Shown piece after piece: positions 34,653 to 57,894 of a stretch of 64,000 bases of DNA. The stretch's first letter is position 1; every line of letters begins with the position of its first letter. Origin of the DNA: an uncultured delta proteobacterium (GTDB lineage Bacteria; Myxococcota_A; Polyangia; Fen-1088); contig CAVYGB010000001.1 of the NCBI GenBank assembly GCA_963767925.1, forward strand, positions 295,085-359,084, given 5' to 3'. Below the pieces are notes generated by a model, which saw nothing but the letters and a program-made list of their open reading frames with translations, made no database searches and had not been told where the DNA came from. Made by a program: the position numbers and the translations under genes.

Positions 34653-37600
34653 TCAGGACAGGAGCATCTCCAGGGTCTCGCGGTCCAGGCCGCGGACGAA
34701 GCCCTGGTCCTCGTTGATGATCGACTCGGCCAGGCCGCGCTTCGACTCCTGCAGCGCTGCCACCTTCTCCTCGACGGTGTCCCGGCAGAGCAGGCGGTAG
34801 ACGAAGACCTGGCGCTGCTGCCCGATGCGGTGGGTGCGGTCGACGGCCTGGGCCTCCACCGCCGGGTTCCACCAGGGATCCAGGATGAAGACGTAGTCGG
34901 CGGCGGTGAGGTTCAGCCCGGTGCCGCCGGCCTTGAGGCTGATCAGGAACAGCGGGCAGTCGGGATCGTTCTGGAAGCGGGTCACCCGGGCCGCCCGGTC
35001 CTGAACCTGCCCATCGAGGTATTCGTAGGTCACCCCCTCGGCGTCCAGCCGCGCCCGCACCAGCGCCAGGAAGCTCGTGAACTGCGAGAACACGAGGGCC
35101 TTGTGCCCCTCGGCCCGCAGCTCCGCCAGCCGCGGCAGCAGCACCTCCAGCTTGGCGCTGGGCTCGTTGGCCCGCGCGGGGTCGATCAGCCCCGGATGGC
35201 AGGCGGCCTGCCGCAGGCGCAGCAGCGCCTCCAGCACCTGGATCGCGTTCTGCTTCCCCTCGCCGCCGGCGCCAGCGCCGGCCCCGGTCTCCTTCAGCAG
35301 GCGGGCCCGGTAGTGGTCGCGCAGCTCCCGGTAGTGCTTGGCCTGCGCCGGCTCGAGCTCGCAGAAGATTGTCTCCTCGTGTTTGGGCGGCAGCTCCGGC
35401 GCGACCTGGGCCTTGGTGCGGCGGAGGATGAACGGCCGCAGCGCCCGCGCCAGGCCGATCAGGGACTCCTCGCCCGGGCGCCCGCGCCCGGTGATGGCCT
35501 CGAAGGCGCGGGTCGACCCCAGCATGCCCGGGTTCAGGAACTCGAACAGCGACCACAGCTCGCCCAGGTGGTTCTCCACCGGGGTGCCCGACAGGGCCAG
35601 CCGGTGCTGGCCGCGGAGCAGGCGCGCCGCCTTGGCCGACTCCGACGACGGGTTCTTGATCGCCTGGGCCTCGTCGAGGATGAGGTAGTCGAACTCCATC
35701 CCGGCCAGCAGGCCGACGTCGCTGCGCAAGATCCCGTAGGTGGTCAGGATCAGGTCGGCCCCGGCCAGGCCCTCCAGCCGGGGGGTCCTCCCCGGCCCCA
35801 CGTGCGCCAGGCAGCGCAAGCTGGGGGCGAAGCGGGCCGCCTCCTGCTGCCAGTTCCAGACCAGCGACTTGGGCACCACCACCAGCGAGGGCGTCTTCAC
35901 CTCCGTGCGCCGCTGCTCCAGCAGGGCCAGGATCTGGATGGTCTTGCCGAGGCCCATGTCGTCCGCCAGGCAGCCCCCGAACCCGAAGCGGCGCAGGAAG
36001 CTGAACCACCCCACCCCCACCTCCTGGTAGGGACGCAGCTGGCCGAGGAAGCCGGGCGGGGCCGGCTCGGCCGCCACCCCCTCGAAGCGGGCCACCTCCT
36101 GGCGGGCGCGCGCGAAGATCTCGTCGACCTGCGCCTCTGGCTGGGCCGACACCAGGGCGTCCAGCAGGCCGGTCTGGCTGCGCTTGAAGCGGAGCTGATC
36201 GCCGTCGATGGTGCCCATCTCCGCCAGCAGCCCGTACCGGGCCAGCCACTCCTCGGGCAACATCCCCAGGCTGCCATCGCCGAGCACCACGGTCTTCTCG
36301 CCCCGGCGCAGCGCCCGCAACAGATCCGGCAGCGAGGCGCTCACTCCGTCGAAGTCGACCCTGGCGCTGAGGTCGAACCAGTCGATCCCGCTCTGCACGC
36401 TGATGTCGAACCGGCCCGGCCGCCGGTGCAGGCGTCCCTGCGCGTGCACCTGCCAGCCCTCCGCCAGCAGGATGCGCACCACCGCCGGCAACCGCGAGGC
36501 GGCGATCTCGAACACCCCCTCGTCGTCATCGGCGTGATACGGGATGCGAAAGCCCAGCTCCAGCAGGCGCTCGGCGGCCGCCCGCTCCGCCGGGCGATCG
36601 CGCCGGATCAGCAGCCCCTCCTGGGGCACCACCATGCCCGCGCGACGGTCGCCGGCTTCGATGCGCCGCCCCTCGTAGGAGAAGGCCAGGTGAGCCAGCG
36701 GGCGCTCCCCCACGTTCCGGAGCTGCATCGTGCCCGGCCAGCGCACCGGCGGCTCGGCCTCCGGTGGCCGCACCGTGATCTCGGGCCGCGGCGCCGCCAC
36801 GACCTCGGTCATGGCCAGGCCTTCCGGGAGCGACAGCGGGGGCAGGGCGTGCTGGGTGAGCAGCTCCTCGAGGAACGGCTGCACCTCGGTGGCGGCCACC
36901 GGAATCGACTTCACCCGGCCCAGCAGCTTGGCCAGCGGGAAGGCCCCGAAGTCCCGGAAACGGGCCAGCCGGTCCCCCAGGATCATCCAGCCCTCCGGGC
37001 TGAGCATCTTGACCGCCGCCAGCTCCACCTGCTCCGCCTCCCGCCGCGCGCCCCCCAGCATGGCCAGACCATCGCCGCCCCGGTCCTCCATCTGCACGAC
37101 GAGCTCCCAGGGCGCACCCGGGTCGTAGCGCAGCGGCGACAGGGCGCGCCCCTCGGCCTCGATGAGAAAGAAGCGACCGGTCGCCGACACCAGGGGCATG
37201 AGCTGATCGGCCATGCTCACCGGAACCGGGATGGTGGTGAGGAAGTGGGCGCCGTCGCCGTAGCCCCCGGTGTCGGCGATCGTGGCCGCCCCCTGCAACA
37301 GGGGCAGCAGCCGGCGATCGTGCTCGTCCTCCAGCAGCGCGAGCGTGTCGAAAGGAATGCGCGCCGCCCCGGGCAGCGTACGCCTGGCCGGCCTGGCCGG
37401 CGCTGCCACCCGCCCCGGTTTTGCTGCCCTGGCCCGCTTGCGTCCCAGGATGCGCAGGGTCAGCGGTCCCACCCCACTCTGCATGGCGTCCACCGCATAG
37501 AGGATCTCACCCCGGAACGGCTTGCCGTGCCGGCGCGGCCCCTCCGCCCGCGAGCGGGCCTCGTCGAGCAGCTTCTTCCAGGCCGGTGGCGCCACCATCG

Positions 37601-37952
37601 ACGGAGGCGGCTGCGAGGCGCGGCCGCCGGCGCCGGGCGGGCGCTCACCGGGTCGCGGCCAGCGCTCGAACTCCGGCAGCCGCCGCAACAGCCCCTCGCC
37701 GTTGGCCGCCAGCACGGTGGCCCACAGGTGCTCGCAGGTGCCGGTCGCCCGGGAGGCGGCGCAGGTGCAAGCCAGGACGAGGTCGCCGCCCAGCACCTCG
37801 ATTCCGGTCTGCTCGATCGCCCCCCGTCCCACCTCCGCCAGCACGGCGTGCCCCGACGAATGGAGAATCTTCACCACCCCCGCCCGGTACAGCGCCGCCC
37901 CGGGCGCCCGCACCGCGCCCGGGAACTGGGCAATCAGATCGGCGAAGACCAC
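34653..37952 (-). CDS. SNF2-family helicase with N-terminal SWIM zinc finger
   Basis: SWIM 'CTCAASRATGTCEH', and helicase motifs 'LADDMGLGKT', 'LILDEAQAIKN', 'ALSGTPVEN', 'LVFSQFTSFL' and 'GGTGLNLTAADYVFILDPWWNPAVEAQAVDRTHRIGQ'. Confidence 0.9.
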   Translation of the reverse strand: MVFADLIAQFPGAVRAPGAALYRAGVVKILHSSGHAVLAEVGRGAIEQTGIEVLGGDLVLACTCAASRATGTCEHLWATVLAANGEGLLRRLPEFERWPRPGERPPGAGGRASQPPPSMVAPPAWKKLLDEARSRAEGPRRHGKPFRGEILYAVDAMQSGVGPLTLRILGRKRARAAKPGRVAAPARPARRTLPGAARIPFDTLALLEDEHDRRLLPLLQGAATIADTGGYGDGAHFLTTIPVPVSMADQLMPLVSATGRFFLIEAEGRALSPLRYDPGAPWELVVQMEDRGGDGLAMLGGARREAEQVELAAVKMLSPEGWMILGDRLARFRDFGAFPLAKLLGRVKSIPVAATEVQPFLEELLTQHALPPLSLPEGLAMTEVVAAPRPEITVRPPEAEPPVRWPGTMQLRNVGERPLAHLAFSYEGRRIEAGDRRAGMVVPQEGLLIRRDRPAERAAAERLLELGFRIPYHADDDEGVFEIAASRLPAVVRILLAEGWQVHAQGRLHRRPGRFDISVQSGIDWFDLSARVDFDGVSASLPDLLRALRRGEKTVVLGDGSLGMLPEEWLARYGLLAEMGTIDGDQLRFKRSQTGLLDALVSAQPEAQVDEIFARARQEVARFEGVAAEPAPPGFLGQLRPYQEVGVGWFSFLRRFGFGGCLADDMGLGKTIQILALLEQRRTEVKTPSLVVVPKSLVWNWQQEAARFAPSLRCLAHVGPGRTPRLEGLAGADLILTTYGILRSDVGLLAGMEFDYLILDEAQAIKNPSSESAKAARLLRGQHRLALSGTPVENHLGELWSLFEFLNPGMLGSTRAFEAITGRGRPGEESLIGLARALRPFILRRTKAQVAPELPPKHEETIFCELEPAQAKHYRELRDHYRARLLKETGAGAGAGGEGKQNAIQVLEALLRLRQAACHPGLIDPARANEPSAKLEVLLPRLAELRAEGHKALVFSQFTSFLALVRARLDAEGVTYEYLDGQVQDRAARVTRFQNDPDCPLFLISLKAGGTGLNLTAADYVFILDPWWNPAVEAQAVDRTHRIGQQRQVFVYRLLCRDTVEEKVAALQESKRGLAESIINEDQGFVRGLDRETLEMLLS

Positions 37953-38054: not shown

Positions 38055-38480
38055 TCAGCCGGCTGGCGTCGCGTCGGCAGAGGCGGCCAGCTCGTCCAGG
38101 AAGCGGCTGGCGGCGGCGAGCCCGACGGGCGCCTCGCGCACCATCCGGACCGGATCGAGGTCCCCGTAGGCGTGGGCGATGCGGTTCCTGAGGGAGGAGA
38201 GCAGGGCCATGGCCCGGGCGGCGTCGGGCGTGATCGAGCCCGAGCGCGCCAGGATCTCGAAGGCCTCCCGGTGCGAAGCCGGGATCCCCAGGCCCCGCTC
38301 CGAGATGAGGTGGGTCGCCAGATCGAGCGCGTCCTGGACCAGGAGAAACAGGTTGAAGGCGATGAAGGCCTCCGTGCGCTCGTCCTCGAGGACCGCCTCG
38401 GCCCGGGCCGGCAAGGCCTTGCGGACCTTCTCGATGCGCTCACGGCATTGCAGCAGCTTGCGAAGGAGCAGCTCGTTCAT
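38055..38480 (-). CDS. hepT: HepT (DUF86, HEPN RNase) type VII toxin, intact
   Basis: 141 aa with the 'RNRIAHAY' (R-x4-H-x-Y) motif. It overlaps the upstream mntA by 4 bp. Confidence 0.85.
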   Translation of the reverse strand: MNELLLRKLLQCRERIEKVRKALPARAEAVLEDERTEAFIAFNLFLLVQDALDLATHLISERGLGIPASHREAFEILARSGSITPDAARAMALLSSLRNRIAHAYGDLDPVRMVREAPVGLAAASRFLDELAASADATPAG

Positions 38481-38923
38481 GCCCGGCGGGCCTCGGCTTC
38501 CCGGGCCAGGCGGCGGCGCACCCCTTCGGCGCAGCGGGTGACCATGGGAGCGAGATCGAAGTAGCGGAGCGCCGATTCGGCCCGGAAGCTGGTCCAGGTG
38601 GCCGGCTCGCGTTCGTGGAGCAACAGCCCGTCGCGCGCGATCTCGAACCGCAGCCAGTCAGAGGCGGTCTCCAGGCTCACCACGTGCGGCTCGCGCTCCA
38701 TCAACCCGCCCACCTCGGTGCCGACGTCGAGCTGCTCCCAGAAGCCGCCGCCCAGGACGCCCACATCGGCGTCGCTGTCCGGCCGGCCGCTGCGCCGAGC
38801 CAGCGAGCCGAAGAGGACCACCAGGCGCACGCCGGGCCAGCGTCCTGCCAGACGCGCCAGGGGAGCGGCCAGCTCGGAAGGCTCCATCGGCCCGAGGATA
38901 GCCTGCGCGGCACGCCTCTGCAC
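38477..38923 (-). CDS. mntA: MntA nucleotidyltransferase, type VII antitoxin
   Basis: 'LVVLFGSLARRSGRPDSDADVGVL' (GS...DxD). An alternative start is at MEPSEL (38887). Confidence 0.85.
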   Translation of the reverse strand: MQRRAAQAILGPMEPSELAAPLARLAGRWPGVRLVVLFGSLARRSGRPDSDADVGVLGGGFWEQLDVGTEVGGLMEREPHVVSLETASDWLRFEIARDGLLLHEREPATWTSFRAESALRYFDLAPMVTRCAEGVRRRLAREAEARRA

Positions 38924-39045: not shown

Positions 39046-42000
39046 TCAGGAGGGGGCGTGGGCGACCGAGAGGGGCGGGGTGCCCAGCGAGGCGCTCGGG
39101 GCGGCGGGGAGCCTCGCGCTGGGCCGCAGGGAAGGGGGCGTATCCAGGTGCGCCTCCACGCGCTTCTGACTCTGCAACCAGGCGTTGTCGGGCAGGGCCA
39201 GCGCGTTGACGAAAGGCGCGCTCTGCTCGGTGACGAACACCTGCTCGGGCGTGGGGGGCGGCTTGCGGTGGATGAACATCTCGATGAACGCGACAAGGAT
39301 CCCGACGATCGCCGCCACCACGCCGACGATCGGGATGGCGCTGAGGACCTCGATCCCGACCAGGGCGGCGATGCCGATGCCACCCTCCACCAGGAAGGCG
39401 ACCCCGTTGGCCACCTCGCCCAGGATGTCGAACACCTTGATCGCGGTCGGCTGGCCCGAGGCGAAGTCGGCCGCGATCTGGAAACCGGTCGCGACACAGG
39501 CCGCCCCCATGGCGATGATCGTGATTCCCCTGGCCATCACCTCGGTCACCTGGGCAAATTTGGTCCAGCGCGAGGCCGCCGCCGCCAGGCCCTCCGCGTT
39601 CGTGAGCGCCACGCCGGCGACCTCACCGGCCCGGGCCAGCGCGGGGGCCGCCAGGTCATCGAGCTCGATGTCCACCTGGACCGCGATCTTGTCTGCCGCC
39701 TCGGTCAGGCGGGTAAAATCGAGCTCGGTCTGGATCTGACCGGTGGCCTCCATGAGATCCTCGAGGGAGGAGGTGGCGGTCGCGAGCTTCTGGGCCGCGG
39801 TGTAGGTGACGACGTCGTTGAAGATGTTGATGGTGACGTCGAGGATCTGCGTGACGGTCTGCACCTGCTCCGCTGGCTTGAGCTGTCCCCAGCCGAGCAG
39901 CGCCTGGATCGACTGCCAGATCCCGAAGCCGTAGACCGCGATGGACAGGCTCCCGGCGATGAACTTGCTCTTGCGCGGGTTGTTGTCCGCCCAGACCTTG
40001 AGCCGCGCTGGCATGATCCCCTTGGCCGTCCGCAGGACGTCGACCATGTCGGCGATCATGTTGCCCATCCCGTCGACCAGGGCATTGACGTTGTCGACCT
40101 GGTATTCGGCCATGAGCGCCTGGAGGTCGGCGACCGCCTGACCCCGGATGGCGTCGCCCCACTTGCCGTCGACGAGCAGGGAGGCGAAGTACTGGCGGAA
40201 GAACTCGGTCAGGAACCCGACGAAGTCCTCCTTCGTGCCGGCGCCGACGAACTTGAGCACCTCGTTGAGGCGGTAGTCCATCACCCGCTCGTACAGCGAG
40301 GTGGCGTAGGAGACCGACTTTCCGTCGGGCTTGACCACGCGGGCGGCCGGGTCGAGCACGTGCAACAAGGTGGACAGGTGGGTGAGCCGCTGCCGGTTGT
40401 CGACGGTGTTCTGCAGGGCCAGGCCGGTGAGCTCGAGCGGGTCGGTGCAGTATTCGTACAGCTTCTGGGCCCAGCCGACCGGATCGCTTTGCAGGTACGG
40501 GGCGAGCTCCGGCACCGTGTCGGAGTAGGAGCTGTCGAGCAGCTTCGCGGTCACCTGGCTGTAGGCCTTGCTCTGGGAGAACGAGGTGGTGCCGTCGCCC
40601 TTCCAGAAGTAGCCGAGCTTGTCGTCGACGCTGGACAGCTTCGCGAACTGGGCCTGGATGTTCGGGTCGGTGCTCTTCGAGAACGCCTGGGTCAGGTAGC
40701 CGATGGCGAACTTGTCGACCAGGAACGCGTTGACCTCGTCGGTCTGCAACATCGCCGCGTCGCTGTCGCTGAGGGCCTGCCCCTGGCCGACCGCGGGCGC
40801 GGTCTCGCCGAACCACTGCAGCCACTGGGTGCCATTGGCGGCGTCGCGCTTGCTGAGGGCCAGCAGCATCAGGCTCTTCAGCTTGCCGAAGCTCAGCTCG
40901 TGCACGTTGGTCATGTCGGGCGGGGGCACCAGGAAGAGCTGCTCCGCGCTCATCGGCAAGGCGCCGGCGAGCTGCATGGCCTGCGCGATGGGGGCGGGGA
41001 CCGGCGCCGAGGCCGGGTTGGGGCGCAGCAGGGCGCTGTCGATGGGCTGGGCCAGCATCCGGGAGGTGGAGCCGGTCATCATCGCCTGCAGCTTTGCCAG
41101 GTCCTTGCAGGTGCCGTGCACCGCCACCCCGTCGCCGCGGAAGCCCGGCTTGGTCTGATCGAAGGGGTAGATGGTGCCGGCGAAGGCCCGGTAGTCCATC
41201 GTGAAGTCGAGCTCCGCCGCGACCCAGGCGCTGCCGCCGAACTGGCAGAGCTGGGGGTCGACGTTGAGCTCCGCGTGCAGCACGGTCAGCGACTGCTTGT
41301 TGGTGGCGACCGAGAACACGACGGTGGAATACTTCTGCAGGTTGGCGGTGGCGGTGGCGTCTCCGGGGACGGTCACCTCCCCGAGCGCGTGGAGCAGCCC
41401 CTTGTCGTCGCGGGTGAAGCCCATGTCGAACTCGTACCAGGGGGTGCGGTCGGAGCCGGCTTCGGTCGTGTAGCCGACCAGCCCGGCCGCCGTGAACAGC
41501 AGGGGGGCCCCGCCGTAGCTGACCGCGCCGTGGCCGAGCAGCCCGTGCGCCGCCAGGCGGAGCGCGCCGGTCTCCTCGACGCCGGAGTCGAGGCGCCGGT
41601 GCCAGTAGAGGTGGTCCCCGTCGGCGTGGCTGGCGACCGGCTCGCCGTCGACGAAGAGCCGGCCCTGGTAGACCCCGAGCTGGTCGAACGCCCGGCCGGG
41701 CGCGCTCGCCCCGTGCGCCTCGACCTTCATGGTCGGCAGGACCAGGTGGGCCGCGCCGGCGACCGCGCGCCGGCGCACCCCGTGGGCGTCGGTGTGGGCG
41801 GCCCGGGCGGCCGAGCGCCTGGGATCGCGCAGGGCGGAGGCGACCGCGCTCACCACGCCCTTGCCGAGGGCCTTGCTCAGCATCGGCTCGATCTCGCCGA
41901 GGGTGCGGCCGAAGGCGAGCTGCTCGGCGTTCGACATGTTCGAGACCATGTTCGACGTGATGTGCTGGACGGTGATCTCGGGGTAGTTGACCAGACAGCA

Positions 42001-43314
42001 GTAGCCGCGAGCGTGGTACGAGTGGTGCCCGCGCAGGTGCAGGTCGTAGCCCGTGGGCCCCTTGCCGGCGGCGAAGGTCTCGACGTTGATGCGCTCGACG
42101 ACGATCTTCTCGTACTCCGTGCGGTCGTCGCCCTTGCTGGCCAGGCGCCAGACGACGTCGCCCACGTCCAGGCGCTTGACCGCGTGGTGCGGGACGAAGC
42201 TCATCGTCACCTCGGGCGCCAGGCTGCACCAGCCCCGCTGGGTCATGACCGCGTGCTCGAACGACATGAAAGGCGGGTCGTCGTTGAAGCTGTACAGTCC
42301 GGTGAGCTGGTCGTTGACCACCAGCTCGGCCGAGCAGACCGAGACCGCCCCGCCGCCGCTGGCCACCTCGTCGCCCTCCTGCAGCCGCTCGACCGGCGTC
42401 GTCGATCCGTCCGCCAGCAAGATGGGTGTCCCCGCGCGCACGCAGCCGTTGCTCTGGCGGACGTCGGTGACGTTGCTGGGCGCCTTGCCCGACGCCAGGC
42501 CGAAGGCGGGCGGCCCCCCGCTCGAGTTGACCCACTGGACGACGCCGGCGCCGTAGGTCGTGCGCACCCAGGTGCTCAGCGTGCCGAACCCGTTCATGTC
42601 CGGCACGTCCCGCGAGTAGATCGTCTGCGCGCCACAGGCCACCGCGACCGCCTGGAACACGGCGCCGAAGGCCGGCGCGCCCTGGCGGAAGCTCGGCTCG
42701 ACGGCGTCGAGCCAGGGGTAGCGGTCGAAGCCCTCGAGGTCGGTGCTCCAGCGCGGGTTCACCACCCAGGCCTGGAGGACCCGCTTGAAGTTCGGCCCGT
42801 CGTTGTCCAGCAGCCGCAGGGTCAAGAGGAGGACCTTGGCCGGCAGGCTGGATCCGATGGTGTCGCACTCGACAAGGAGGCCGGTCAGGAAGTCGCTGCT
42901 GGCGGCCTCGTCGGCGATGGCCTTGGCGTTGGTTGCCCCGTCGGTGAAGAAGGGCCCCAGCACGCTCGGCTGCATCAGGTAGTCGGTGAAGATGTCCTGG
43001 CCGACCGTGTTCGTGTTGATGCTGAACCAGCTCTGGATCGTGCCGTAGGAGATGTTCTGGACGGTGGCGTTGAAGCCGAGGGAGGTGTTGGCCGAGAGCG
43101 CGAAGCTCAGGTACTCGACCGCCAGTTGCCGCAGGTTCTGGGCGTCAGCCGCCTCGTGTGTCGTCAGGAACGGCTCGACCGGCTGGCCGGCGAAGAACGT
43201 CGCGTGAACGCCGGCATCGGCGCTCGTCACCGCATCCAGCAAGCGCGCCTGCAGGAAGGTCTCCGGCGGCGACTTGATCGCCTTCACACTGTTCATGAAT
43301 TGGTCGAAGTTCAT
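39046..43314 (-). CDS. 1,422-aa orphan protein: unassigned N-domain / Hint (bacterial intein-like) domain / about 950-aa unassigned region ending in hydrophobic Gly-zipper helices
   Basis: The ATG at 43314 has a GAGG 7 nt upstream (the track ORF starts 26 codons earlier). The frame is uninterrupted and its composition is unlike spurious GC frames. See the findings. Confidence 0.8.
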   Translation of the reverse strand: MNFDQFMNSVKAIKSPPETFLQARLLDAVTSADAGVHATFFAGQPVEPFLTTHEAADAQNLRQLAVEYLSFALSANTSLGFNATVQNISYGTIQSWFSINTNTVGQDIFTDYLMQPSVLGPFFTDGATNAKAIADEAASSDFLTGLLVECDTIGSSLPAKVLLLTLRLLDNDGPNFKRVLQAWVVNPRWSTDLEGFDRYPWLDAVEPSFRQGAPAFGAVFQAVAVACGAQTIYSRDVPDMNGFGTLSTWVRTTYGAGVVQWVNSSGGPPAFGLASGKAPSNVTDVRQSNGCVRAGTPILLADGSTTPVERLQEGDEVASGGGAVSVCSAELVVNDQLTGLYSFNDDPPFMSFEHAVMTQRGWCSLAPEVTMSFVPHHAVKRLDVGDVVWRLASKGDDRTEYEKIVVERINVETFAAGKGPTGYDLHLRGHHSYHARGYCCLVNYPEITVQHITSNMVSNMSNAEQLAFGRTLGEIEPMLSKALGKGVVSAVASALRDPRRSAARAAHTDAHGVRRRAVAGAAHLVLPTMKVEAHGASAPGRAFDQLGVYQGRLFVDGEPVASHADGDHLYWHRRLDSGVEETGALRLAAHGLLGHGAVSYGGAPLLFTAAGLVGYTTEAGSDRTPWYEFDMGFTRDDKGLLHALGEVTVPGDATATANLQKYSTVVFSVATNKQSLTVLHAELNVDPQLCQFGGSAWVAAELDFTMDYRAFAGTIYPFDQTKPGFRGDGVAVHGTCKDLAKLQAMMTGSTSRMLAQPIDSALLRPNPASAPVPAPIAQAMQLAGALPMSAEQLFLVPPPDMTNVHELSFGKLKSLMLLALSKRDAANGTQWLQWFGETAPAVGQGQALSDSDAAMLQTDEVNAFLVDKFAIGYLTQAFSKSTDPNIQAQFAKLSSVDDKLGYFWKGDGTTSFSQSKAYSQVTAKLLDSSYSDTVPELAPYLQSDPVGWAQKLYEYCTDPLELTGLALQNTVDNRQRLTHLSTLLHVLDPAARVVKPDGKSVSYATSLYERVMDYRLNEVLKFVGAGTKEDFVGFLTEFFRQYFASLLVDGKWGDAIRGQAVADLQALMAEYQVDNVNALVDGMGNMIADMVDVLRTAKGIMPARLKVWADNNPRKSKFIAGSLSIAVYGFGIWQSIQALLGWGQLKPAEQVQTVTQILDVTINIFNDVVTYTAAQKLATATSSLEDLMEATGQIQTELDFTRLTEAADKIAVQVDIELDDLAAPALARAGEVAGVALTNAEGLAAAASRWTKFAQVTEVMARGITIIAMGAACVATGFQIAADFASGQPTAIKVFDILGEVANGVAFLVEGGIGIAALVGIEVLSAIPIVGVVAAIVGILVAFIEMFIHRKPPPTPEQVFVTEQSAPFVNALALPDNAWLQSQKRVEAHLDTPPSLRPSARLPAAPSASLGTPPLSVAHAPS
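41986..42444 (-). other. Hint / mini-intein-like domain (153 aa) inside the giant ORF
   Basis: Block A 'CVRAGTPILLADGSTTPVERLQEGDEV' (Cys codon 42442-42444), block B-like 'SFEH', and block F/G-like 'GYDLHLRGHHSYHARGYCCLVN' (Asn codon 41986-41988) followed by Tyr. Confidence 0.7.
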
Positions 43315-43513
43315 GGAAGTACCTCGGGATGTTCGCGACGGTGGGGGTCGGACGTCGGGGTCGGACGGACCTCGAGCGGCGCCATCGTACACCCTGGCGC
43401 GCTCGTCGCTCTCGCCAGTCGGGCCCGGCGCTGATCTCCGGGCAGGTCGCCGCTGCTCAGGCCCTCACGCGTTTTCGGCTTCGTGGTTCGGCTGCGTGGT
43501 AAAGAAGGCCCCC

Positions 43514-44227
43514 ATGTTGCCCGTGCGGACCATCGACAGCGTCCTCACGCCCGAGGGGCGGCTGGAGCTGCGGCAGCGGGATGATGGGCAGGCCTTCATC
43601 ACCATCGACGGGCGGGTGCTGATGACCAGCGCCGCCCACCGGTCGGAGACCGAGCTGGCCCGGCTGGCCTGCGCGCCCCTGGCCGGCCGCCCGCGCGCCC
43701 ATGTGCTGATCGGGGGGCTGGGCATGGGCTACACCCTGCGCGCGACGCTGGATGACCTGCCCGCCCGCGCGCGCGTGACGGTCGTCGAGCTGAACCCGGT
43801 CGTCGTCACCTGGTGCCGGGGACCGCTGGCCCGGCTCACCGGCAACGCCCTGGCCGATCCTCGGGTGAAGGTGATCGAGCGCGACGTCGCCCGGGTGATC
43901 GGCGACGCCGCCGGCGCCGCCGGCGCCGCCTTCGATGCCATCGTGCTCGACCTCTACGAAGGCCCCCACCAGGCGACAAACCGAGCGACTGACCCCCTGT
44001 ACGGCCGCGCCGCCCTCGAGCGGACCGCCAAGGCGCTGCGCCCCGGCGGCATCCTCGCCATCTGGTCCGAGGAGCCCGACCGCCCCTTCGAGGCCCGCCT
44101 GGCCGCCGCAGGCTTCGAGGTCCAGCGCCACGCCCGCGGCAAAGGCGGCCGCTCCCACACGATCTACCTCGGCGTCTTGCTCGCCGCCCCCCGCCCCCGC
44201 CCCACCCGCGGACGCCGATCGGGATGA
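43514..44227 (+). CDS. Spermidine-synthase-like SAM-dependent methyltransferase-fold protein
   Basis: 'VLIGGLGMGYTLRATL', 'VTVVELNP', 'FDAIVLDLYEGP' and 'LRPGGILAIW'. The ATG at 43514 lies inside a longer track ORF. Confidence 0.75.
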   Translation: MLPVRTIDSVLTPEGRLELRQRDDGQAFITIDGRVLMTSAAHRSETELARLACAPLAGRPRAHVLIGGLGMGYTLRATLDDLPARARVTVVELNPVVVTWCRGPLARLTGNALADPRVKVIERDVARVIGDAAGAAGAAFDAIVLDLYEGPHQATNRATDPLYGRAALERTAKALRPGGILAIWSEEPDRPFEARLAAAGFEVQRHARGKGGRSHTIYLGVLLAAPRPRPTRGRRSG

Positions 44228-44547: not shown

Positions 44548-46769
44548 TCAGCCGCCGCGTGCGGCTGCCTTCACCCGTTCGAGGACGGCCACGAGATCCT
44601 TGACCTGGGTCTCGTTGAAGATCCCTTCCGGCCCCCGGGGCGTGATGTCGGTGAACGGCGACTCGTAGAGCAGCGACGGGGTCATCACACCGTGTTCGGT
44701 CAGGTGATCGACGATCAGGTTCACGAACACGATCTGATTGGCCCCTGGGGTCTTGCCGCTGAGAAAGCCGCCGAGCGCTTCCTTGGCTGCCTCCCGATCG
44801 AGGCCCACCAGCGAGCGTACGAAGAGTCCCAGTCCCTCCGAGGCGGTCCGGGCATGATCCAGATCCTCCCGGGGGCCGACGCCGCTCTCGGCCAGCATGC
44901 GCTCGAGCTCGACCAGATCCGCTCCGGTCAGCGGCCGGTTCATCCGCAGTTTGGCGATGGCCACGTGGTCGGTGTGAGCCCTCAGGAACACGCGGGCCTT
45001 GTCCCGGAACTTCTGAAGGTCCCCGGCGCAAGCAAAGACCGGCAGGGCCACTTCCACGCTGTCGCCCTGCTCGTCGGGGATATTCGTGTAGAGGACCGTG
45101 CGTTGTTGCTTCTCCAGGAGCTTGACCAGGCCGCGCAGGCGCCGGCGTACCCGCTCCAGCATGGGCACCGTGACGTCCTGCCACCACCCATCGGTCTGTA
45201 TCTCGGCGATGATCGGCAACTGCTCGCGGATCATGGGAATGCTCGACTGTCCCTCAAGCAGAACGGCGATTTCCTCGACTTGTCCCCTCAGGCGCGCGAA
45301 CGCCGGCTGGGCCTTCAATCGAGCCAGCATCAGGCTGAACATCAGCAGGTCGAAGCGCTTGGCCTCCTCGGGCTCGGAAGGTTGCTCGGACGGCAACCCG
45401 GCCACCTCTTTCGCCAGCTCGGCGCGGGCTTCGGCCGGCAACTTCACCCACGCAGCGCTATCACGATAGGCCTCGATAACGCGCCGGCGAGGCCGGACCA
45501 CGAAGTTGTCCAGGTTCATGGCGGCGACCTGACCGTGCAGGTCCATGGCGAGCGCATCCCGGACCTCCACGTCGGTCACGGGATCTCGGAGGGCGGCCAG
45601 GTCTGGCTCGGCTGCGCCGGCCGGGTGCTTGTCGCGCTCTCGCTTTCGATCGAGCTCGGCGATGACGTCCAGCCGTCTGGTGAAGAGCCGCTTGCCCAGG
45701 GATGGGCTCGCCGTTCCGTCGGTGGTCTCGGGATTGGCGCTGAAGAACTCCAGGTTCTGACAGTAGTCGAACAGATAGAAGAACTGCTTGTGCTCCCCGG
45801 GTCCGAACAGCTCCCGACAGAGCCGGGTCCCGCGGCCCACCATTTGCCAGAACTTGGTCCTGGACCGGACGATCTTGAAGAAGACCAGATTCACCACTTC
45901 CGGAACGTCGATGCCGGTGTCCAGCATGTCCACCGAGATCGCGATGTGCGGCGCCTTGCTGGGGGTCGAGAAGCTGTCGATCAGGCTCTGCGCGTACTCG
46001 ACCTTGAAGGTGATGACCCGGGCGAAGTCACCCTTCATCTTGGGGTAGTTGACGTTGAACCGATCCTCGATGAAGTCGGCGTGCTTCTGGTTCTTGGCGA
46101 AGATGATGGTCTTGCCCAGGCGATCGCCCCCGTCGACGTGGACCCCCCGGGTCATCAGGTGGGCCAGCGCCTTGTCGACGGTATCGGTGTTGAACAGCCA
46201 GGTATTGATCGCCTCGGCCTCCACCGCGTCCGGGGACCCGTCAGGGTCGTCCCATTCCAGGGCGTCCCACTGATCCTTGGCCTCCTCCGTTAGGTCGCTG
46301 TAGCGGATCCCCTCGCGTTGAAACTTCAGCGGGACGGACACCGCGCGGGTGGGCACCAGGAAACCGTCGCGCACAGCCTCGTCCAGGCCGTAGGCATCGG
46401 TGGGGACGCCTTTCTCCAGATCGAACAGTGTGTAGGTGTTCCGGTCGATGTCCTCCTTGGGGGTGGCGGTCAGGCCCACCAGCAGCGAGTCGAAGTACTC
46501 GAAGATTGTCCGGTACTTCTGGAAGACCGACCGGTGCGCCTCGTCGATGATCAGCAGGTCGAAGTGGCCCACGCCGAAGCGCCGCTGCGCCTCGTTCGCT
46601 GGCAGCCTGGCCTCGTTGATCATCCCCATCATGGTGGGGTAGGTGGACACGAAGACCCGGCATAGAAGCAGGCGGTCCGGGGATCGGCGCGAACCGATGA
46701 GGCCGCCTTGCTGGCCGCCTCGTGAACGTCCGGCCACTCCTCCCGGAGGAAGCTGAACTGGTCGCTCAT
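44548..46769 (-). pseudogene. hsdR: Type I restriction enzyme R subunit with internal deletion plus frameshift
   Basis: The ATG at 46769 gives 'MSDQFSFLREEWPDVHEAASKAASSVRADPRTACFYA', a typical HsdR N-terminus. At about 46659 the reading jumps frame directly to 'RVFVSTYPTMM...LLIIDEAHRS'. The nuclease domain and helicase motif I (Walker A) are missing, while the rest (motifs II-VI and the C-terminal domain) is present. Confidence 0.8.
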
Positions 46770-46845
46770 GCCACCACCCTCTCCTGGTCGTGCCGCCGGC
46801 CTTCACGCATCCGCTGATCTTGCGTCGCGGCAAGCCCTGGAGCCG

Positions 46846-46892
46846 TGTCGCAAGTTTTGGCGCAAGTTTGTCGCAAGTTCTGTCGCCAGTTC
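46846..46892. repeat. Four tandem 11-13-bp repeats (TGTCGCAAGTTTT / GGCGCAAGTTT / GTCGCAAGTTC / TGTCGCCAGTTC)
   Basis: Read directly from the sequence. They lie 77-123 bp upstream of the hsdR ATG, in the filler between the hsdS remnant and hsdR. Confidence 0.8.
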
Positions 46893-47076
46893 GGCGAGCG
46901 GCCTGGAGGGCCTGCACCCCGCCTTGTCGCGAGAGCCTCGTACAGGGCTGTTGCCGATGACCCCCTTTCCCGCCGCCTTCGGCTGGGACGTCCTGTCCGG
47001 TTCCGGCTCACCACTTGCCTTCGGGCAGATAGGTGAGGTTGTTGGTGTCGCCCTCGTGGCGGAGCGGGATCGGCCG

Positions 47077-47407
47077 CGCCGGGTTTCACCCTCAGTCGAA
47101 CAAGATAGCCCGCAAAAGCAAACTTTTCGTCTCGGTTCCAGACGCCCGTCTTACCGACGAGCTCGTGGCTGTTCGTACGATTGAAGAGGAGGTCTCCCCG
47201 TCGGACTGAATAGCGCTCCAGCTCACTATCAGGCAGCTCGACATGTTTCACGTCCCGGAGGTCAAGCGATCCCGAATACGTGATGTTGTTCATCCGAAGG
47301 ACCGGGACCCCCCGGCCCGATTCGTTCGCCTTTACCGATGTTCCGTACTGAGTGTCGTCGATGACGTCCCCGAGTGGCACGACAGGCCAGCGGCTGATAA
47401 GGCTCAT
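47077..47407 (-). pseudogene. hsdS: Type I R-M specificity subunit, first target-recognition domain only
   Basis: 'WPVVPLGDVIDDTQYGTS...VPVLRMNNI...RGDLLFNRTNSHELVGKTGVW...FAFAGYLVRLRV', after which homology is lost. The start overlaps the hsdM stop (ATGA). Confidence 0.7.
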
Positions 47408-48940
47408 GCGATCATCTCTCGGAGCTGATCCAGATCTCGCTTGATAGCCGCCTCGAGCTTGTCGAGATCGAGTATCAGGTCGCGGGGTGCTCGGTGCTCA
47501 ACCTCCTCGTGCACCACCTCCCTGTACCGGTTGATGCCCAGATAGTAGCCTTGGGCCACAAGGTCTGACTTTGACACGCAGAAGCTCTGGGCGGTCCGCG
47601 GCCGCTCCCGCTCCGGCCCATTCCGCTGTTCCCATCGCCCGAGAATATCTGGCAGGTTGTTCTTCGCGTGCTCCTCCTTCGTCAGGATCACGTCCGGAAC
47701 AGCGCCCAGCTTGTCCTCCCCCAGTAGCGGCGTGCGCTTGTCGTCCAGGCTCCAGCCGTCCGCGTCGCAGTCATAGAACCAGACGTGGTCGGTGCCGCCA
47801 GAGTTGGTCTTGCTGAAGAGGACGATGGCCGTGGAGACGCCAGCGTAGGGCTTGAACACGCCGCCGGGCAGGGAGATCACCCCCTCCAGCTTCTGCTCCT
47901 CAACCAGCATCCGGCGAAGCTCCTTGTGGGCCTTGCTCGACCCGAACAGCACACCGTCGGGCACGATCACCGCCGCCCGGCCACCGGGTTTCAGTAGCCG
48001 TAAGAAGAGCGCCAGGAACAGCAGTTCCGTCTTCTTGGTCTTGACGATCTGAAGCAGGTCCTTGGCGGTGTTCTCGTAGTTCAGCGAGCCGGCAAAGGGC
48101 GGGTTAGCCAGCACCAGGGTGTAGCGCTCCTCCTCGCCCGCGTGATCCTGGGCCAGCGAATCCTGGTAGCGGACGTCGGGGTTTTCCACCCCGTGCAAGA
48201 GCATGTTCATGCTGCCTATGCGTAGCATCGTGCTGTCGAAGTCGAAGCCGTGAAAGGCCTGCTGGTGGAAGTGCGCTTTCAACTCAGCGTCGCGCAGGAT
48301 CTCTGGGTGGCGCCGCCGCAGGTACTCACCGGCCGCCACCAGGAACCCGCAAGTGCCGCTGGCGGGATCGCAGATGACATCCTTGGGCTGCGGAGCAGTC
48401 ATCTCCACCATGAGGCGAATGATGTGGCGAGGGGTGCAACTGACCGTTCCTTCCAGCGCTGGCGATCTTGCCCAGCATGTACTCGTAGATGTCGCCTTTT
48501 GTGTCCCGGTCATCCATGGGAACGTCATCTAGAAGGTCCACCACCCTGGACAGGAGGGCCGGCGTGGCAATCGACAGCCGAGCGTCCTTCATGTGGTGTG
48601 CATACGTCGAACCATCGCCGCCCAGCGTTCTCAGGAAGGGGAAGACATGTTCTGCCACCAGGTTGTACATCTCCGCAGGGGGCATGTTCTTGAACCTCGA
48701 CCAGCGTAGATCTGCGTACGGACGTCCTTTCGAATCCTTCCCTTCCGGGAAGACCCTTCGCGCCATGGGCGTCTTCAAGGTGTTCGCCCTGTTCTCCTCC
48801 CTCAGCTGTTGCTCGTTGAGGCGTCGGAAGAAGATCAGATAGGTGATCTGTTCAATCACCTCCAGCGGGTTTGAGATGCCACCTGCGGCAAAAGCATTCC
48901 AGATAGCATCAACCTGATTCCGTAGCTCGCCGGTCAGCAT
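47404..48940 (-). pseudogene. hsdM: Type I R-M N6-adenine DNA methyltransferase subunit, one frameshift near 48438
   Basis: The N-terminal piece '...GDIYEYMLGKIASAGRNGQ' (track ORF 48326..48940) continues in another frame as 'TPRHIIRLMVEMTAPQPKDVICDPASGTCGFLV...LANPPFAGS' (47404..48528). Confidence 0.8.
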
Positions 48941-57664: not shown

Positions 57665-57679
57665 CGAGAGCCTCCAGAA

Positions 57680-57726
57680 CAGCGGGTCTGCCGTGGACGC
57701 GAGAAGACGCGCCGGCAGACCCGCTG
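57680..57726 (-). promoter_or_regulatory. 14-bp perfect-stem hairpin in the aspS leader, ending 15 nt before the start codon
   Basis: CAGCGGGTCTGCCG-19 nt-CGGCAGACCCGCTG. On the coding strand it is followed by TTCTGGAGGCTCTCGATG (SD GGAGG). Confidence 0.4.
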
Positions 57727-57894
57727 GTCAGGCGCGCTTCTCGAGATCGTCGTCGTCGTCAGGCATGTGTGTGCTCCGGCGAGAATTCAGAATAGCGCAG
57801 CCGCGGGAACGCGCGACTGTTTTTGAGGACGGATCCGGCCCGGCCGCGTGGGAAAAAGCAACAACTCGGCCGGCGCATCGTAATCATTGGGGTG

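What the first reader, a model, noticed from the sequence alone, without database searches (positions are those of the whole stretch)
39046..43314. Orphan 1,422-aa protein with an embedded mini-intein-like (Hint/BIL) domain and a C-terminal glycine-zipper membrane module
**Seen in the sequence**
- In track-ORF numbering, residues 317-469 read 'SNG|CVRAGTPILLADGSTTPVERLQEGDEV...SFEHAVMTQRGW...VGDVVWRL...GYDLHLRGHHSYHARGYCCLVN|YPE'.
- This gives intein/Hint block A with the nucleophilic Cys, a block-B-like SxxH, and block F/G ending in Asn, within 153 aa and with no homing-endonuclease insert.
- The residue after the terminal Asn is Tyr, not Cys/Ser/Thr, so canonical splicing is not expected.

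**Established knowledge**
- That combination is what is described for bacterial intein-like (BIL) domains and for the HINT domains of polymorphic toxins. Both act as self-cleavage modules.

**Flanking parts**
- I could not assign the N-terminal region (about 290 aa) or the C-terminal region (about 950 aa) to any family.
- The C-terminal region ends in about 90 aa of Gly/Ala/Ile/Val-rich helices ('GITIIAMGAACVATGFQIAADF...VAFLVEGGIGIAALVGIEVLSAIPIVGVVAAIVGILVAFIEMFI', nt 39271-39537), with a further hydrophobic helix upstream ('FIAGSLSIAVYGFGIWQSIQALLGW').
- There is no signal peptide and no RHS/YD, PAAR or LXG-type feature that I can see.
- The amino-acid composition (rich in N/Q/S/T/K/F/Y) and the DNA look less GC-rich than the backbone.

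**Inference**
- This may be a horizontally acquired, self-processing, membrane-inserting effector or toxin of an undescribed type.
- No small immunity-like ORF follows it. The next co-directional genes are mntA-hepT.
Basis: partly seen in the sequence, partly recalled or inferred. Interest (0 to 1): 0.8.

Follow-up and report, generated by a model that had tools for sequence, protein, structure and literature searches.

The report
Self-cleaving Hint domain in membrane protein
This 1,422-residue protein does carry a genuine, probably active, intein-like self-cleaving (Hint) domain, but it is not an orphan toxin: it belongs to a large, unnamed protein family found in several bacterial phyla, fungi, a green alga and a sponge, and its function is unknown.

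Summary
ORF 39046-43314 (-) encodes a 1,422-aa protein with no Pfam or NCBIfam family. It has a 153-aa Hint-like segment (Cys291...Asn443|Tyr444) and a hydrophobic C-terminus.

**Hint domain.** It is real. A 31-sequence family profile matches the solved Tetrahymena BIL2 domain end to end (E=1e-7). It also matches C. thermocellum BIL, PRP8 and VMA inteins.

**Not an orphan.** A full HMMER scan with the C-terminal 911 aa finds 393 cluster representatives. Named ones come from Bacillota, ascomycete fungi, Volvox and a sponge; separate locus scans add Bacteroidota. All named members are annotated as "hypothetical" or "uncharacterized".

**Gene split.** In Bacillota the gene is split just after the Hint domain plus a ~55-aa helical tail. 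The layout of gene A resembles Hedgehog.

**Catalytic residues.** Cys1, the block-B His and His426 are kept in 45 of 46 representatives that carry the conserved N-terminal domain. They are lost together where that domain is absent or unrecognisable.

**Splicing.** It is excluded by an invariant Tyr-Pro at +1/+2.

**Best reading.** A thioester forms at Gly290|Cys291 and releases or transfers the N-terminal domain from a C-terminally membrane-anchored cytoplasmic body.

**Toxin or recent HGT.** Neither is supported. There is no signal peptide, immunity gene or conserved neighbour, and the N-domain has no catalytic residues. GC3 is 0.96.

The parts
39046..43314 (-). Whole CDS, 1,422 aa plus stop codon
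   Evidence: ORF list. The ATG start fits the homologues' N-termini. All seven family modules are mapped by local HMMs.
43322..43325 (-). GAGG ribosome-binding site 8 nt upstream of the ATG
   Evidence: Read directly from the sequence.
42514..43314 (-). N-terminal domain (res 1-267): all-alpha plus one beta-hairpin, with no known fold relative
   Evidence: AF2 pLDDT is about 90. Foldseek finds nothing against PDB (best E 0.45) or BFVD (best E 0.23). The domain is homologous in 45 of 53 N-regions of the family. Only hydrophobic positions are conserved.
42445..42513 (-). Flexible linker (res 268-290) ending in Gly290, with a conserved P279-x-N281
   Evidence: AF2 pLDDT falls at the end of the linker (blocks 261-280 about 87-92, block 281-290 about 61). 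Linker length varies and Gly runs precede Cys1 in homologues. The -1 residue is Gly in 39 of 61 segments. P279 and N281 are conserved in 76-78%.
41986..42444 (-). Hint (BIL-like) domain, res 291-443
   Evidence: Family profile against PDB: BIL2 (6y75/6tmm) E=1.1e-7 over the full length, 2lwy BIL 2.4e-4, PRP8 intein 1.6e-4, PI-SceI 2.6e-4. Pfam Hint-type families are hit below threshold in many members. AF2 failed on this segment (pLDDT 25-45).
42442..42444 (-). Cys291 codon, the predicted nucleophile (Hint position 1); the scissile bond is Gly290-Cys291
   Evidence: Invariant in the 12 closest members. Cys in 46 of 61 representative Hint segments, and lost only where the N-domain is absent or unrecognisable.
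42253..42264 (-). Block B, S351-F-E-H354 (TxxH equivalent)
   Evidence: Aligned to T-V-N-H of BIL2. His in 49 of 61 segments, Gln in the Cys-less members.
42001..42051 (-). Block F/G-like 'GYDLHLR...SYHARGY', including His426
   Evidence: Aligned to 'IYHIQVE-NNHNFFANG' of BIL2. His426 is present in 45 of 61 segments and is lost together with Cys1.
41980..41988 (-). Asn443 | Tyr444-Pro445 at the C-terminal Hint boundary
   Evidence: Asn in 46 of 61 segments but variable in the closest homologues. Tyr at +1 in 46 of 61 and Pro at +2 in 58 of 61. The penultimate residue is Val, not His.
41782..41985 (-). Helical tail after the Hint domain (res 444-511); its end is where the gene is split in Bacillota
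   Evidence: AF2 predicts helices 445-504 at pLDDT about 40-65. Gene A ends 53-59 aa after YPE in 14 split loci, L004-L007, L014 and L016-L024; in L026 it ends about 45 aa after.
41035..41757 (-). Beta-rich domain (res 520-760)
   Evidence: AF2 pLDDT is about 80. Only weak, non-significant Foldseek similarity to TbpB, LbpB and hemophilin barrels (E about 0.03).
40267..40959 (-). Helical domain A (res 786-1016)
   Evidence: AF2 pLDDT is about 75 over res ~790-960, falling to ~46-68 by 1010. This is the most widely conserved module of the family.
39547..40266 (-). Helical domain B (res 1017-1256), including the hydrophobic helix 1118-1142 (39889-39963)
   Evidence: Mapped by local HMMs. An equivalent hydrophobic helix passes the hydropathy threshold in several bacterial and eukaryotic homologues. 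Flanking charge is +4 before it, and -9 in the 118-aa loop after it.
39136..39546 (-). C-terminal membrane module (res 1257-1393): hydrophobic segments 1263-1284 (39463-39528) and 1301-1349 (39268-39414), then the 'HRKPPPTPE..FV..PF' motif
   Evidence: Hydropathy analysis. Conserved across the family, eukaryotes included.
39049..39135 (-). Non-conserved Pro/Ser/Ala-rich C-terminal extension (res 1394-1422)
   Evidence: Absent from homologues. GC is 0.83.

Best explanation
The gene encodes a member of a large, undescribed protein family. Each member has a big cytoplasmic body held in the membrane by a C-terminal cluster of hydrophobic helices, and a catalytically competent Hint domain of the BIL/Hedgehog type between a conserved about 270-aa alpha-helical N-terminal domain and the rest of the protein.

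**Proposed mechanism.**
1. Cys291, assisted by the block-B His354 and by His426, attacks the Gly290-Cys291 peptide bond (N-to-S acyl shift). This makes a thioester.
2. The thioester is resolved by water, a thiol or another nucleophile. The N-terminal domain is then released from the membrane-anchored remainder, or transferred to an acceptor.
3. Protein splicing does not occur, because the +1 residue is an invariant Tyr-Pro.
4. Asn443-dependent C-terminal cleavage is possible in this protein but is dispensable in its close relatives.

**Shown here.**
- Hint homology.
- Conservation and co-loss of the catalytic residues.
- The family's architecture, its gene split and its taxonomic spread.

**Inferred.**
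- The cleavage itself.
- The N-in/C-in four-helix topology.
- The biological role, which remains unknown.
For: **Hint identity.**
- The 31-sequence profile aligns the whole domain to BIL2 (E=1.1e-7), with blocks A, B and F/G in register. It also hits 2lwy BIL, PRP8 and VMA inteins (12-sequence profile).
- BIL2 is a Hint domain that uses the N-terminal thioester to transfer its N-extein (PMC8616854, section 2.4).
- Pfam Hint_2, Hom_end_hint, Vint and Hint are hit in 8-16 of 31 members, best E 1.3e-7.

**Catalytic residues under selection.**
- Cys1 is present in 46 of 61 segments, block-B His in 49 of 61 and His426 in 45 of 61.
- 45 of 46 N-domain-bearing representatives keep Cys and His. 13 of 14 without a recognisable N-domain have lost them. 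Fisher p=4e-11, not corrected for phylogeny.
- A metagenomic locus carries tandem paralogues. The one lacking the N-domain also lacks Cys1.

**Cleavage-site context.** The -1 residue is small, Gly in 39 of 61 segments. Gly runs and a variable linker precede it, and confidence falls at its end.

**Gene split.** It falls right after the Hint domain plus tail in Clostridium, Lachnospiraceae and Erysipelotrichaceae. The Hint domain therefore stays attached to the N-domain.

**No splicing.** Tyr at +1 in 46 of 61 and Pro at +2 in 58 of 61.

**Localisation.** No N-terminal hydrophobic segment appears in any member checked. Hydrophobic helices occur only near the C-terminus, in the fungal and algal members too. 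The charge distribution fits an N-in topology.
Against: - No experiment has been done.
- AF2 with an 8-sequence alignment did not fold the Hint segment (pLDDT 25-45), so there is no 3D confirmation.
- No Pfam Hint model reaches its gathering score.
- The penultimate His typical of inteins and A-type BILs is missing.
- A whole fungal clade keeps the domain without Cys or His, so the fold also has a non-catalytic role.
- The co-loss statistic counts cluster representatives, not independent events; roughly 3-4 events are likely.
- The fungal 'non-N-domain' regions start with a similar first helix and may be divergent N-domains.
- Nothing here says what the released domain or the membrane body does.
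Confidence: 0.6

Rival explanations
1. One reading: a secreted or delivered membrane-inserting toxin or effector. The hydrophobic C-terminus would form a pore or translocon in a target membrane, and the Hint domain would release the N-terminal domain as cargo. This parallels large clostridial toxins, which have an effector, an autoprotease and a translocation region.
For: - The order N-domain, autoprocessing domain, large region with Gly/Ala-rich hydrophobic helices resembles the order in those toxins (established knowledge).
- The window gene lies beside defence and toxin-antitoxin genes.
- One marginal hit links the C-terminal region to a diphtheria-toxin-like chain (7rb4, E=0.021).
Against: - The 7rb4 hit disappears with a broader profile and is replaced by generic transmembrane-helix matches.
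- The N-domain is conserved, not polymorphic, and lacks conserved polar residues.
- There is no signal peptide, no RHS, LXG or PAAR domain, and no PT-HINT match better than 1e-3.
- No immunity gene or secretion-system neighbour occurs in the roughly dozen distinct loci examined.
- Homologues occur in fungal, algal and sponge nuclear genomes.
- GC3 is 0.96.
Confidence: 0.1
2. The Hint domain is a catalytically dead structural module, and the protein works as one uncleaved polypeptide.
For: - A fungal clade and the forms lacking the N-domain retain the domain without Cys or His, so it has a non-catalytic role.
- The penultimate His is absent.
- The terminal Asn varies among close relatives.
Against: In the window protein and in 45 of 46 N-domain-bearing representatives the full nucleophile/His set is preserved, down to about 25-30% identity and across kingdoms. 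That is hard to explain without catalysis. A small -1 residue is also preserved.
Confidence: 0.12
3. An abortive-infection or cell-death effector. A trigger activates Hint cleavage, which removes an inhibitory N-domain and unleashes a membrane-disrupting C-terminal region, in the manner of gasdermin.
For: - In the window the gene sits between a decayed type I R-M system and mntA/hepT plus a DpdE/ZorD-like SNF2 helicase.
- In L006 it follows a large helicase and N6-adenine methyltransferase-like ORF of restriction-enzyme type, judged by reading the translation only.
- L015 has an SNF2 gene nearby.
- Bacterial and eukaryotic sharing is typical of immune and death modules (established knowledge).
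Against: - No PADLOC match.
- Most loci have ordinary metabolic or housekeeping neighbours.
- No sensor domain was identified.
- Hint cleavage is normally constitutive.
Confidence: 0.08
4. An ordinary mini-intein that splices out of a host protein.
For: Blocks A, B and F/G and a terminal Asn are present within 153 aa.
Against: - The +1 residue is an invariant Tyr-Pro with no nucleophile.
- The domain is present at the same site in every multi-domain member, and no Hint-free allele exists.
- Genes are split just after it, leaving no C-extein to ligate.
- Forms lacking the N-domain keep the Hint domain.
Confidence: 0.01

Closest known systems
BIL (bacterial intein-like) domains, especially Tetrahymena BIL2 (PDB 6Y75/6TMM) and C. 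thermocellum BIL (2LWY)
   Same: - These are the best sequence relatives among solved structures (E=1e-7 and 2e-4).
- They share Cys1, TxxH and the F/G block ending in Asn.
- Neither has a +1 nucleophile, and neither is inserted in a housekeeping extein.
- BIL2 chemistry starts from the same N-terminal thioester and passes the N-extein to a nucleophile (PMC8616854).
   Different: - The penultimate His is replaced by Val or Leu.
- The flanks are not ubiquitin-like or hypervariable secreted proteins. They are a conserved 270-aa helical domain and a roughly 950-aa membrane-anchored region.
- No Pfam Hint model reaches threshold.
Hedgehog/Hog autoprocessing domain (Hint plus SRR/ARR)
   Same: - The Bacillota gene A product has a three-part layout: an N-terminal domain, a Hint domain cleaving after Gly, and a roughly 55-aa helical tail.
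- Many family members, including the sponge, fungal and algal ones, have the exact G|C-F junction.
- The terminal Asn is not required.
   Different: - There is no signal peptide, so the protein is cytoplasmic rather than secreted.
- In the window protein the tail is followed by 900 more residues.
- Similarity to Pfam Hint (PF01079) is only sub-threshold (8 of 31 members, best 3.6e-4).
- No solved Hedgehog chain appears among the PDB hits at E<=0.01.
- Lipid or other adduct transfer is untested.
Pretoxin HINT domains of polymorphic toxins (PF07591)
   Same: Both are non-splicing Hint domains used as self-cleavage modules in large bacterial proteins.
   Different: - PT-HINT sits just before a variable C-terminal toxin, is followed by an immunity gene and is preceded by trafficking domains.
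- Here the cleaved part is N-terminal, conserved and non-enzymatic, and there is no immunity gene.
- PF07591 is hit in only 1-2 members at E>=1e-3.
Canonical mini-inteins
   Same: Same size, and blocks A, B and F/G with a terminal Asn.
   Different: There is no +1 Cys, Ser or Thr, no intein-free alleles, and the domain is a fixed part of the family architecture.

Membership tests
Hint superfamily (Hedgehog/intein fold) | Block A with a nucleophilic Cys or Ser as first residue | tested here: met
   Cys291 sits in 'G|CVRAGTPILLADG'. It is invariant in the 12 closest members and present in 46 of 61 representative Hint segments.
Hint superfamily (Hedgehog/intein fold) | Block B T/S-x-x-H | tested here: met
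   S351-F-E-H354. Ser or Thr in 54 of 61 segments and His in 49 of 61. Aligned to TVNH of BIL2.
Hint superfamily (Hedgehog/intein fold) | Significant sequence-profile similarity to proteins of solved Hint fold over the whole domain | tested here: met
   BIL2 E=1.1e-7, profile positions 3-156 of 167. Also 2lwy, PRP8 and PI-SceI at about 2e-4.
Hint superfamily (Hedgehog/intein fold) | Predicted or solved three-dimensional Hint fold | tested here: inconclusive
   AF2 with an 8-sequence alignment gave pLDDT 25-45 for residues 291-443.
Hint superfamily (Hedgehog/intein fold) | Pfam Hint-clan model above its gathering score | tested here: not met
   For the window protein, the five Hint-clan hits listed fall below their cut-offs. 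Across members, best E values are 1.3e-7 for Hint_2, 1.3e-5 for Hom_end_hint and 5e-5 for Vint; their bit scores were not returned, so whether any member passes a cut-off is unknown.
Canonical (class 1) intein | Cys, Ser or Thr at +1 of the C-extein | tested here: not met
   Tyr444-Pro445. Tyr in 46 of 61 segments and Pro in 58 of 61.
Canonical (class 1) intein | C-terminal His-Asn | tested here: not met
   Val442-Asn443. Asn is present here and in 46 of 61 segments, but is C, S, A, G or T in close homologues. The penultimate residue is Leu or Val.
Canonical (class 1) intein | Sporadic insertion in a conserved host protein, with intein-free alleles | tested here: not met
   Every protein mapped that has residues N-terminal to the beta domain carries the Hint domain there, apart from P0055 (N-domain followed directly by the beta domain). 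Forms lacking the N-domain keep it, and split genes end right after it.
Canonical (class 1) intein | Protein splicing activity | not testable with these tools
   Needs expression and mass spectrometry.
BIL domain (A-type) | Hint blocks A, B, F and G with a C-terminal Asn and no +1 nucleophile requirement; not in a housekeeping extein | tested here: met
   The exception is the penultimate His, which is missing.
BIL domain (A-type) | Occurrence in hypervariable or secreted bacterial proteins (as described by Amitai et al. 2003, cited in PMC2362128) | tested here: not met
   The flanks are conserved family-specific domains. There is no signal peptide.
Hog domain (Hedgehog type) | Gly-Cys-Phe cleavage junction | tested here: inconclusive
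   The window has Gly-Cys-Val. Many family members, including the sponge, fungal and algal ones, have G/S-C-F.
Hog domain (Hedgehog type) | Hint domain followed by a 60-70 aa adduct- or sterol-recognition region that ends the protein | tested here: inconclusive
   A conserved helical tail of about 55-60 aa follows the Hint domain and ends gene A in Bacillota. In the window it continues into 900 more residues. No similarity to SRR could be tested.
Hog domain (Hedgehog type) | Secreted precursor with a signal peptide | tested here: not met
   No N-terminal hydrophobic segment appears in any member examined.
Polymorphic toxin with PT-HINT | Hint domain directly upstream of a variable C-terminal toxin domain, with a downstream immunity gene and N-terminal trafficking domains | tested here: not met
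   The C-terminal region is a conserved 900-aa module. Neighbours are unrelated across loci. PF07591 is hit in only 1-2 members at E>=1e-3.
Known anti-phage defence systems (PADLOC) | Match to a PADLOC model | tested here: not met
   No families match the target.

The most novel reading that the evidence does not exclude
The family is a prokaryote-to-eukaryote Hedgehog-like adduct-transfer system. The Hint thioester is not simply hydrolysed. Guided by the conserved helical tail, and possibly by the following beta-barrel-like domain, it is attacked by a specific nucleophile such as a lipid, a small molecule or a protein side chain. The N-terminal domain would then leave with a covalent C-terminal modification. 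That would make this a cytoplasmic, membrane-associated relative, or a possible evolutionary precursor, of Hog autoprocessing, shared by bacteria, fungi, green algae and sponges.
Probability: 0.15. Interest if true: 0.9.

Novelty: new variant of a known kind. Interest (0 to 1): 0.68.

Why it matters
Hint domains are known as inteins, Hedgehog/Hog, BIL, Vint and pretoxin modules. This finding adds a further, sizeable class with these properties:
- It has at least 393 clusters at 50% identity.
- It has a fixed multi-domain architecture.
- It appears to have a cytoplasmic, C-terminally membrane-anchored setting.
- It is distributed across several bacterial phyla, ascomycetes, Volvox and a sponge.
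- Every named member is annotated as hypothetical or uncharacterized.

The Bacillota two-gene form places an N-terminal domain, a Hint domain and a short helical tail in one small protein. That is the same layout as Hedgehog precursors, and many members use the same G|C-F junction. The family therefore gives a bacterial, genetically tractable system for studying how Hedgehog-type autoprocessing and adduct transfer arose.

It also supplies three modelled domains with no detectable fold relatives and a conserved membrane module of unknown function. Some carriers are common human-gut bacteria, such as Sellimonas and Erysipelotrichaceae.

Tried and rejected
- **Whole-protein database scans.** Pfam, NCBIfam and PADLOC gave nothing significant.
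- **AF2 of residues 1-511.** The N-domain was confident but the Hint segment failed, so no structural search of the Hint domain was possible.
- **Foldseek of the N-domain.** No match against PDB or BFVD, best E 0.45 and 0.23.
- **Foldseek of the C-region.** Only weak TbpB, LbpB and hemophilin barrel similarity (E about 0.03, probability 0.5-0.8). I treat this as non-significant.
- **Diphtheria-toxin T-domain lead.** The hit (7rb4, E=0.021) vanished with a 26-sequence profile of the membrane module, which found only generic transmembrane helices such as acetylcholine receptor M2-M3 (E>=0.02). Rejected as compositional.
- **Conserved gene neighbourhood.** None was found across the loci examined. 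An SNF2 helicase recurs only in L015, which I read as coincidence.
- **Defence-island idea.** It holds only for the window, and possibly for L006.
- **Recent HGT.** Rejected on GC3. No tRNA genes occur in the window.
- **Word-index homologue searches.** They found only 8-9 relatives and suggested 'orphan'. The exhaustive HMMER scan overturned that.
- **Pfam on five long eukaryotic or metagenomic members.** Nothing beyond sub-threshold Hint_2.
- **Literature searches.** They found no description of this family.

Full report
**1. What is in the sequence.**

The minus-strand ORF 39046-43314 encodes 1,422 aa. It starts at an ATG with a GAGG 8 nt upstream.

All quoted strings are present:
- Gly290|Cys291-VRAGTPILLADG.
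- S351-F-E-H354.
- G422-YDLHLR...SYHARGYCCLV-N443|Y444-P445.
- Hydrophobic stretches at 1118-1142, 1263-1284 and 1301-1349.

Whole-protein scans of Pfam, NCBIfam and PADLOC give nothing significant. The isolated segment gives only sub-threshold block-A hits to Vint, Hint_2, Hom_end_hint and Hint, and to PRP8 inteins in the PDB.

**2. The Hint domain is real.**

Twelve close and Bacillota homologues keep Cys1, the S/T-x-E-H motif, the 'GYDLH.R' block and 'SY.A.G'.
- A profile of these 12 sequences hits Tetrahymena BIL2 (6tmm/6y75) at 8e-5, PI-SceI at 1e-4 and the PRP8 intein at 1.4e-4.
- A 31-sequence profile drawn from the wider family raises BIL2 to E=1.1e-7. The alignment covers positions 3-156 of 167, with blocks A, B and F/G in register.
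- The same profile adds the C. thermocellum BIL domain 2lwy at 2.4e-4.

BIL2 is a structurally solved Hint domain. Its Cys1 thioester passes the N-terminal ubiquitin-like extein to a lysine (PMC8616854, section 2.4).

Scanned member by member, Hint_2 (15 of 31, best 1.3e-7), Hom_end_hint (16 of 31), Vint (13 of 31) and Hint (8 of 31) recur. For the window protein, all listed Hint hits fall below their gathering scores.

AF2 with only eight sequences did not fold residues 291-443 (pLDDT 25-45). Three-dimensional confirmation is therefore missing.

**3. It is not an orphan.**

Word-indexed searches found just 7-8 relatives. An exhaustive HMMER scan of 1.84 billion representatives with the C-terminal 911 aa found far more:

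| E-value cut-off | Cluster representatives |
|---|---|
| <=1e-3 | 393 |
| <=1e-10 | 226 |
| <=1e-30 | 92 |

Local HMMs for seven modules (N-domain, Hint, tail, beta, helical A, helical B, membrane module) show these recurrent architectures:
- The fused roughly 1,400-aa form.
- 'Gene B only' proteins of 810-930 aa.
- Forms lacking the N-domain, about 1,100 aa.
- Forms of 1,500-2,100 aa.

Source names place the long forms in ascomycetes and in Volvox reticuliferus: Xylaria, Zasmidium, Lasiodiplodia, Aspergillus, Xylona, Monosporascus and Penicillium. A separate cluster comes from the sponge Corticium candelabrum. Its deposited 869-aa gene model is truncated: a 1,460-aa member of the same cluster has the N-domain and a 'GGGGG|CF' Hint domain.

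Bacterial carriers include the following:
- Taibaiella soli (Bacteroidota).
- A Clostridium MAG.
- Sellimonas intestinalis and other Lachnospiraceae.
- Erysipelotrichaceae, including Copranaerobaculum.
- Abyssisolibacter.

The window's own host is a high-GC bacterium. The best named relatives of its AspRS are Ktedonobacterales and Anaerolineae at about 70% identity.

Every named member is annotated as 'hypothetical' or 'uncharacterized'. Pfam finds nothing in five long members beyond sub-threshold Hint_2.

**4. The gene split.**

In a Clostridium MAG, three Lachnospiraceae genomes, ten further metagenome contigs and Erysipelotrichaceae, the protein is encoded by two adjacent genes.
- Gene A (about 487-508 aa) carries the N-domain, the Hint domain and a helical tail of about 45-59 aa.
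- Gene B carries the beta, helical and membrane modules. It either overlaps gene A by ATGA or has its own ribosome-binding site.

The Hint domain thus always stays with the N-domain, and no C-extein is left to ligate. The three-part gene A product mirrors a Hedgehog precursor, which has a cargo domain, a Hint domain cleaving after Gly, and a roughly 60-aa SRR/ARR (terminology from PMC2362128).

**5. Catalysis is tied to the N-domain junction.**

Residue counts across 61 Hint segments:

| Position | Residue | Count |
|---|---|---|
| 1 | Cys | 46 |
| Block B | His | 49 (Gln in 9) |
| 426 | His | 45 |
| -1 | Gly | 39 (otherwise mostly Ser, His or Ala) |
| Terminal | Asn | 46 |
| +1 | Tyr | 46 |
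| +2 | Pro | 58 |

An iterated search shows that 45 of 53 regions preceding the Hint domain are homologous to the window's N-domain. Of the representatives with a recognisable N-domain, 45 of 46 keep both Cys1 and His. Of those without one, 13 of 14 have lost them (Fisher p=4e-11).

These are cluster representatives, not independent events, and I estimate 3-4 separate losses. The fungal Cys-less clade may also carry a very divergent N-domain, because its first helix looks similar.

One metagenomic contig, L012, holds tandem paralogues. The first lacks the N-domain and reads 'PGG-VLADTP', with no Cys. The second has both the N-domain and the Cys.

This pattern is what is expected if the chemistry acts on the N-domain/Hint bond. 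Splicing is excluded by Tyr-Pro at +1/+2. Asn443 could in principle cyclise, but the residue is C, S, A, G or T in homologues at 45-56% identity, and the penultimate His is missing.

**6. The flanking parts.**

*N-domain.* Residues 1-267 model confidently (pLDDT about 90) as helices plus one hairpin. Foldseek finds no match in PDB or BFVD. Across 46 representatives only hydrophobic positions are at least 70% conserved: F41, F81, W183, V223, A226, G255, V258 and W261, plus P279 and N281 in the linker. No catalytic constellation is present, so the domain is probably a binding or structural module rather than an enzyme.

*C-region.* It models as three parts:
- A beta-rich domain (520-760, pLDDT about 80). 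It has only weak, non-significant resemblance to TbpB and hemophilin barrels.
- A helical domain (790-1010, pLDDT about 75).
- Low-confidence long helices.

*Membrane module.* A marginal hit to a diphtheria-toxin-like chain did not survive a broader profile. No member checked has an N-terminal hydrophobic segment. The hydrophobic cluster lies near the C-terminus in every member checked, in bacteria and eukaryotes alike.

*Topology.* The charge is +4 before helix 1118-1142, and -9 in the following 118-aa loop. 'HRK' follows the last helix. This fits a four-helix N-in/C-in topology, which is an inference only.

**7. Context and origin.**

In the window the gene lies between two groups of genes:
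- A decayed, lower-GC type I R-M cluster on one side.
- mntA/hepT plus a DpdE/ZorD-like SNF2 helicase on the other.

No neighbour is conserved across the other loci, several of which are plain metabolic or housekeeping regions. The gene's GC is 0.69 against 0.713 for the window, but its GC3 is 0.962, the highest locally. The lower GC therefore reflects amino-acid content, not recent acquisition. No tRNA genes are present.

**8. Conclusion.**

Three of its other claims are not supported: 'orphan', 'horizontally acquired' and 'toxin/effector with missing immunity gene'.

The most likely mechanism is thioester-mediated autoprocessing at Gly290|Cys291. This frees the conserved N-terminal domain from a cytoplasmic, C-terminally membrane-anchored body, or transfers it to an acceptor.

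The family is an undescribed, cross-kingdom variant of Hint-domain autoprocessing proteins. Its biological role is unknown. The least conventional reading still open is Hedgehog-like adduct transfer.

Noticed in passing
window 41986-42444 (family Hint domain, block-B half): The Pfam AXH module (Ataxin-1/HBP1, PF08517) matches the block-B region in 18 of 31 family members (best E 3.8e-7). Solved AXH chains (4j2j, 1oa8) match the 12-sequence profile over about 100 aa at E 0.005-0.014. They are not listed at E<=0.01 with the 31-sequence profile. This hints at an unrecognised AXH-Hint relationship.
   Followed up: partly
window 44548-48940 (-): A decayed type I restriction-modification cluster. 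HsdR lacks its N-terminal part. An HsdS-like fragment, named from its translation only, lies at 46766-47407. HsdM appears in two overlapping frames (47404-48528 and 48326-48940). GC3 of HsdR and HsdM is 0.81-0.84 against about 0.87-0.96 for the other genes measured, so this part looks more foreign than the target gene.
   Followed up: partly
window 38055-38923 (-): An mntA (nucleotidyltransferase) and hepT (HepT-like RNase) toxin-antitoxin pair with a 4-nt overlap. It lies 122 nt downstream of the target gene.
   Followed up: yes
window 34653-37952 (-); L015 8684-11353: A 1,099-aa SNF2 helicase with a Cys/His motif near its N-terminus matches PADLOC DpdE and ZorD models. An SNF2 gene also lies two genes downstream of the homologue in L015, but in no other locus.
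   Followed up: partly
L012 344-3772 and 3905-5494; L013 348-3818: Tandem paralogues in one metagenomic organism. The first copy lacks the N-domain and has lost Cys1 ('PGG-VLADTP'). The second keeps both.
   Followed up: yes
P0138 (1,755 aa, metagenomic representative): It has two Hint domains in tandem. The first has Cys and His. The second is degenerate.
   Followed up: no
P0047 / P0161 (Corticium candelabrum, XP_062503205.1): The deposited sponge gene model (869 aa) starts in the middle of the protein. A 1,460-aa member of the same 90% cluster has the N-domain and a 'GGGGG|CF' Hint domain, so the annotation is probably truncated.
   Followed up: partly
window 56348-57727 (-): Non-discriminating AspRS. 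The best named relatives are Ktedonobacterales and Anaerolineae at about 70% identity, and unnamed metagenomic ones reach 82-87%. The host therefore appears to be an uncultured high-GC, Chloroflexota-like bacterium.
   Followed up: partly
window 4009-12972 (-): A very large ORF (2,988 aa stop to stop, GC3 0.96). Not examined.
   Followed up: no
window 43274-44227 (+): A spermidine-synthase-like methyltransferase ORF. Its longest reading, from a TTG start, overlaps the target's first codons. The true start is probably further downstream. It also gives a weak PADLOC 'mad2' hit (6e-9).
   Followed up: no
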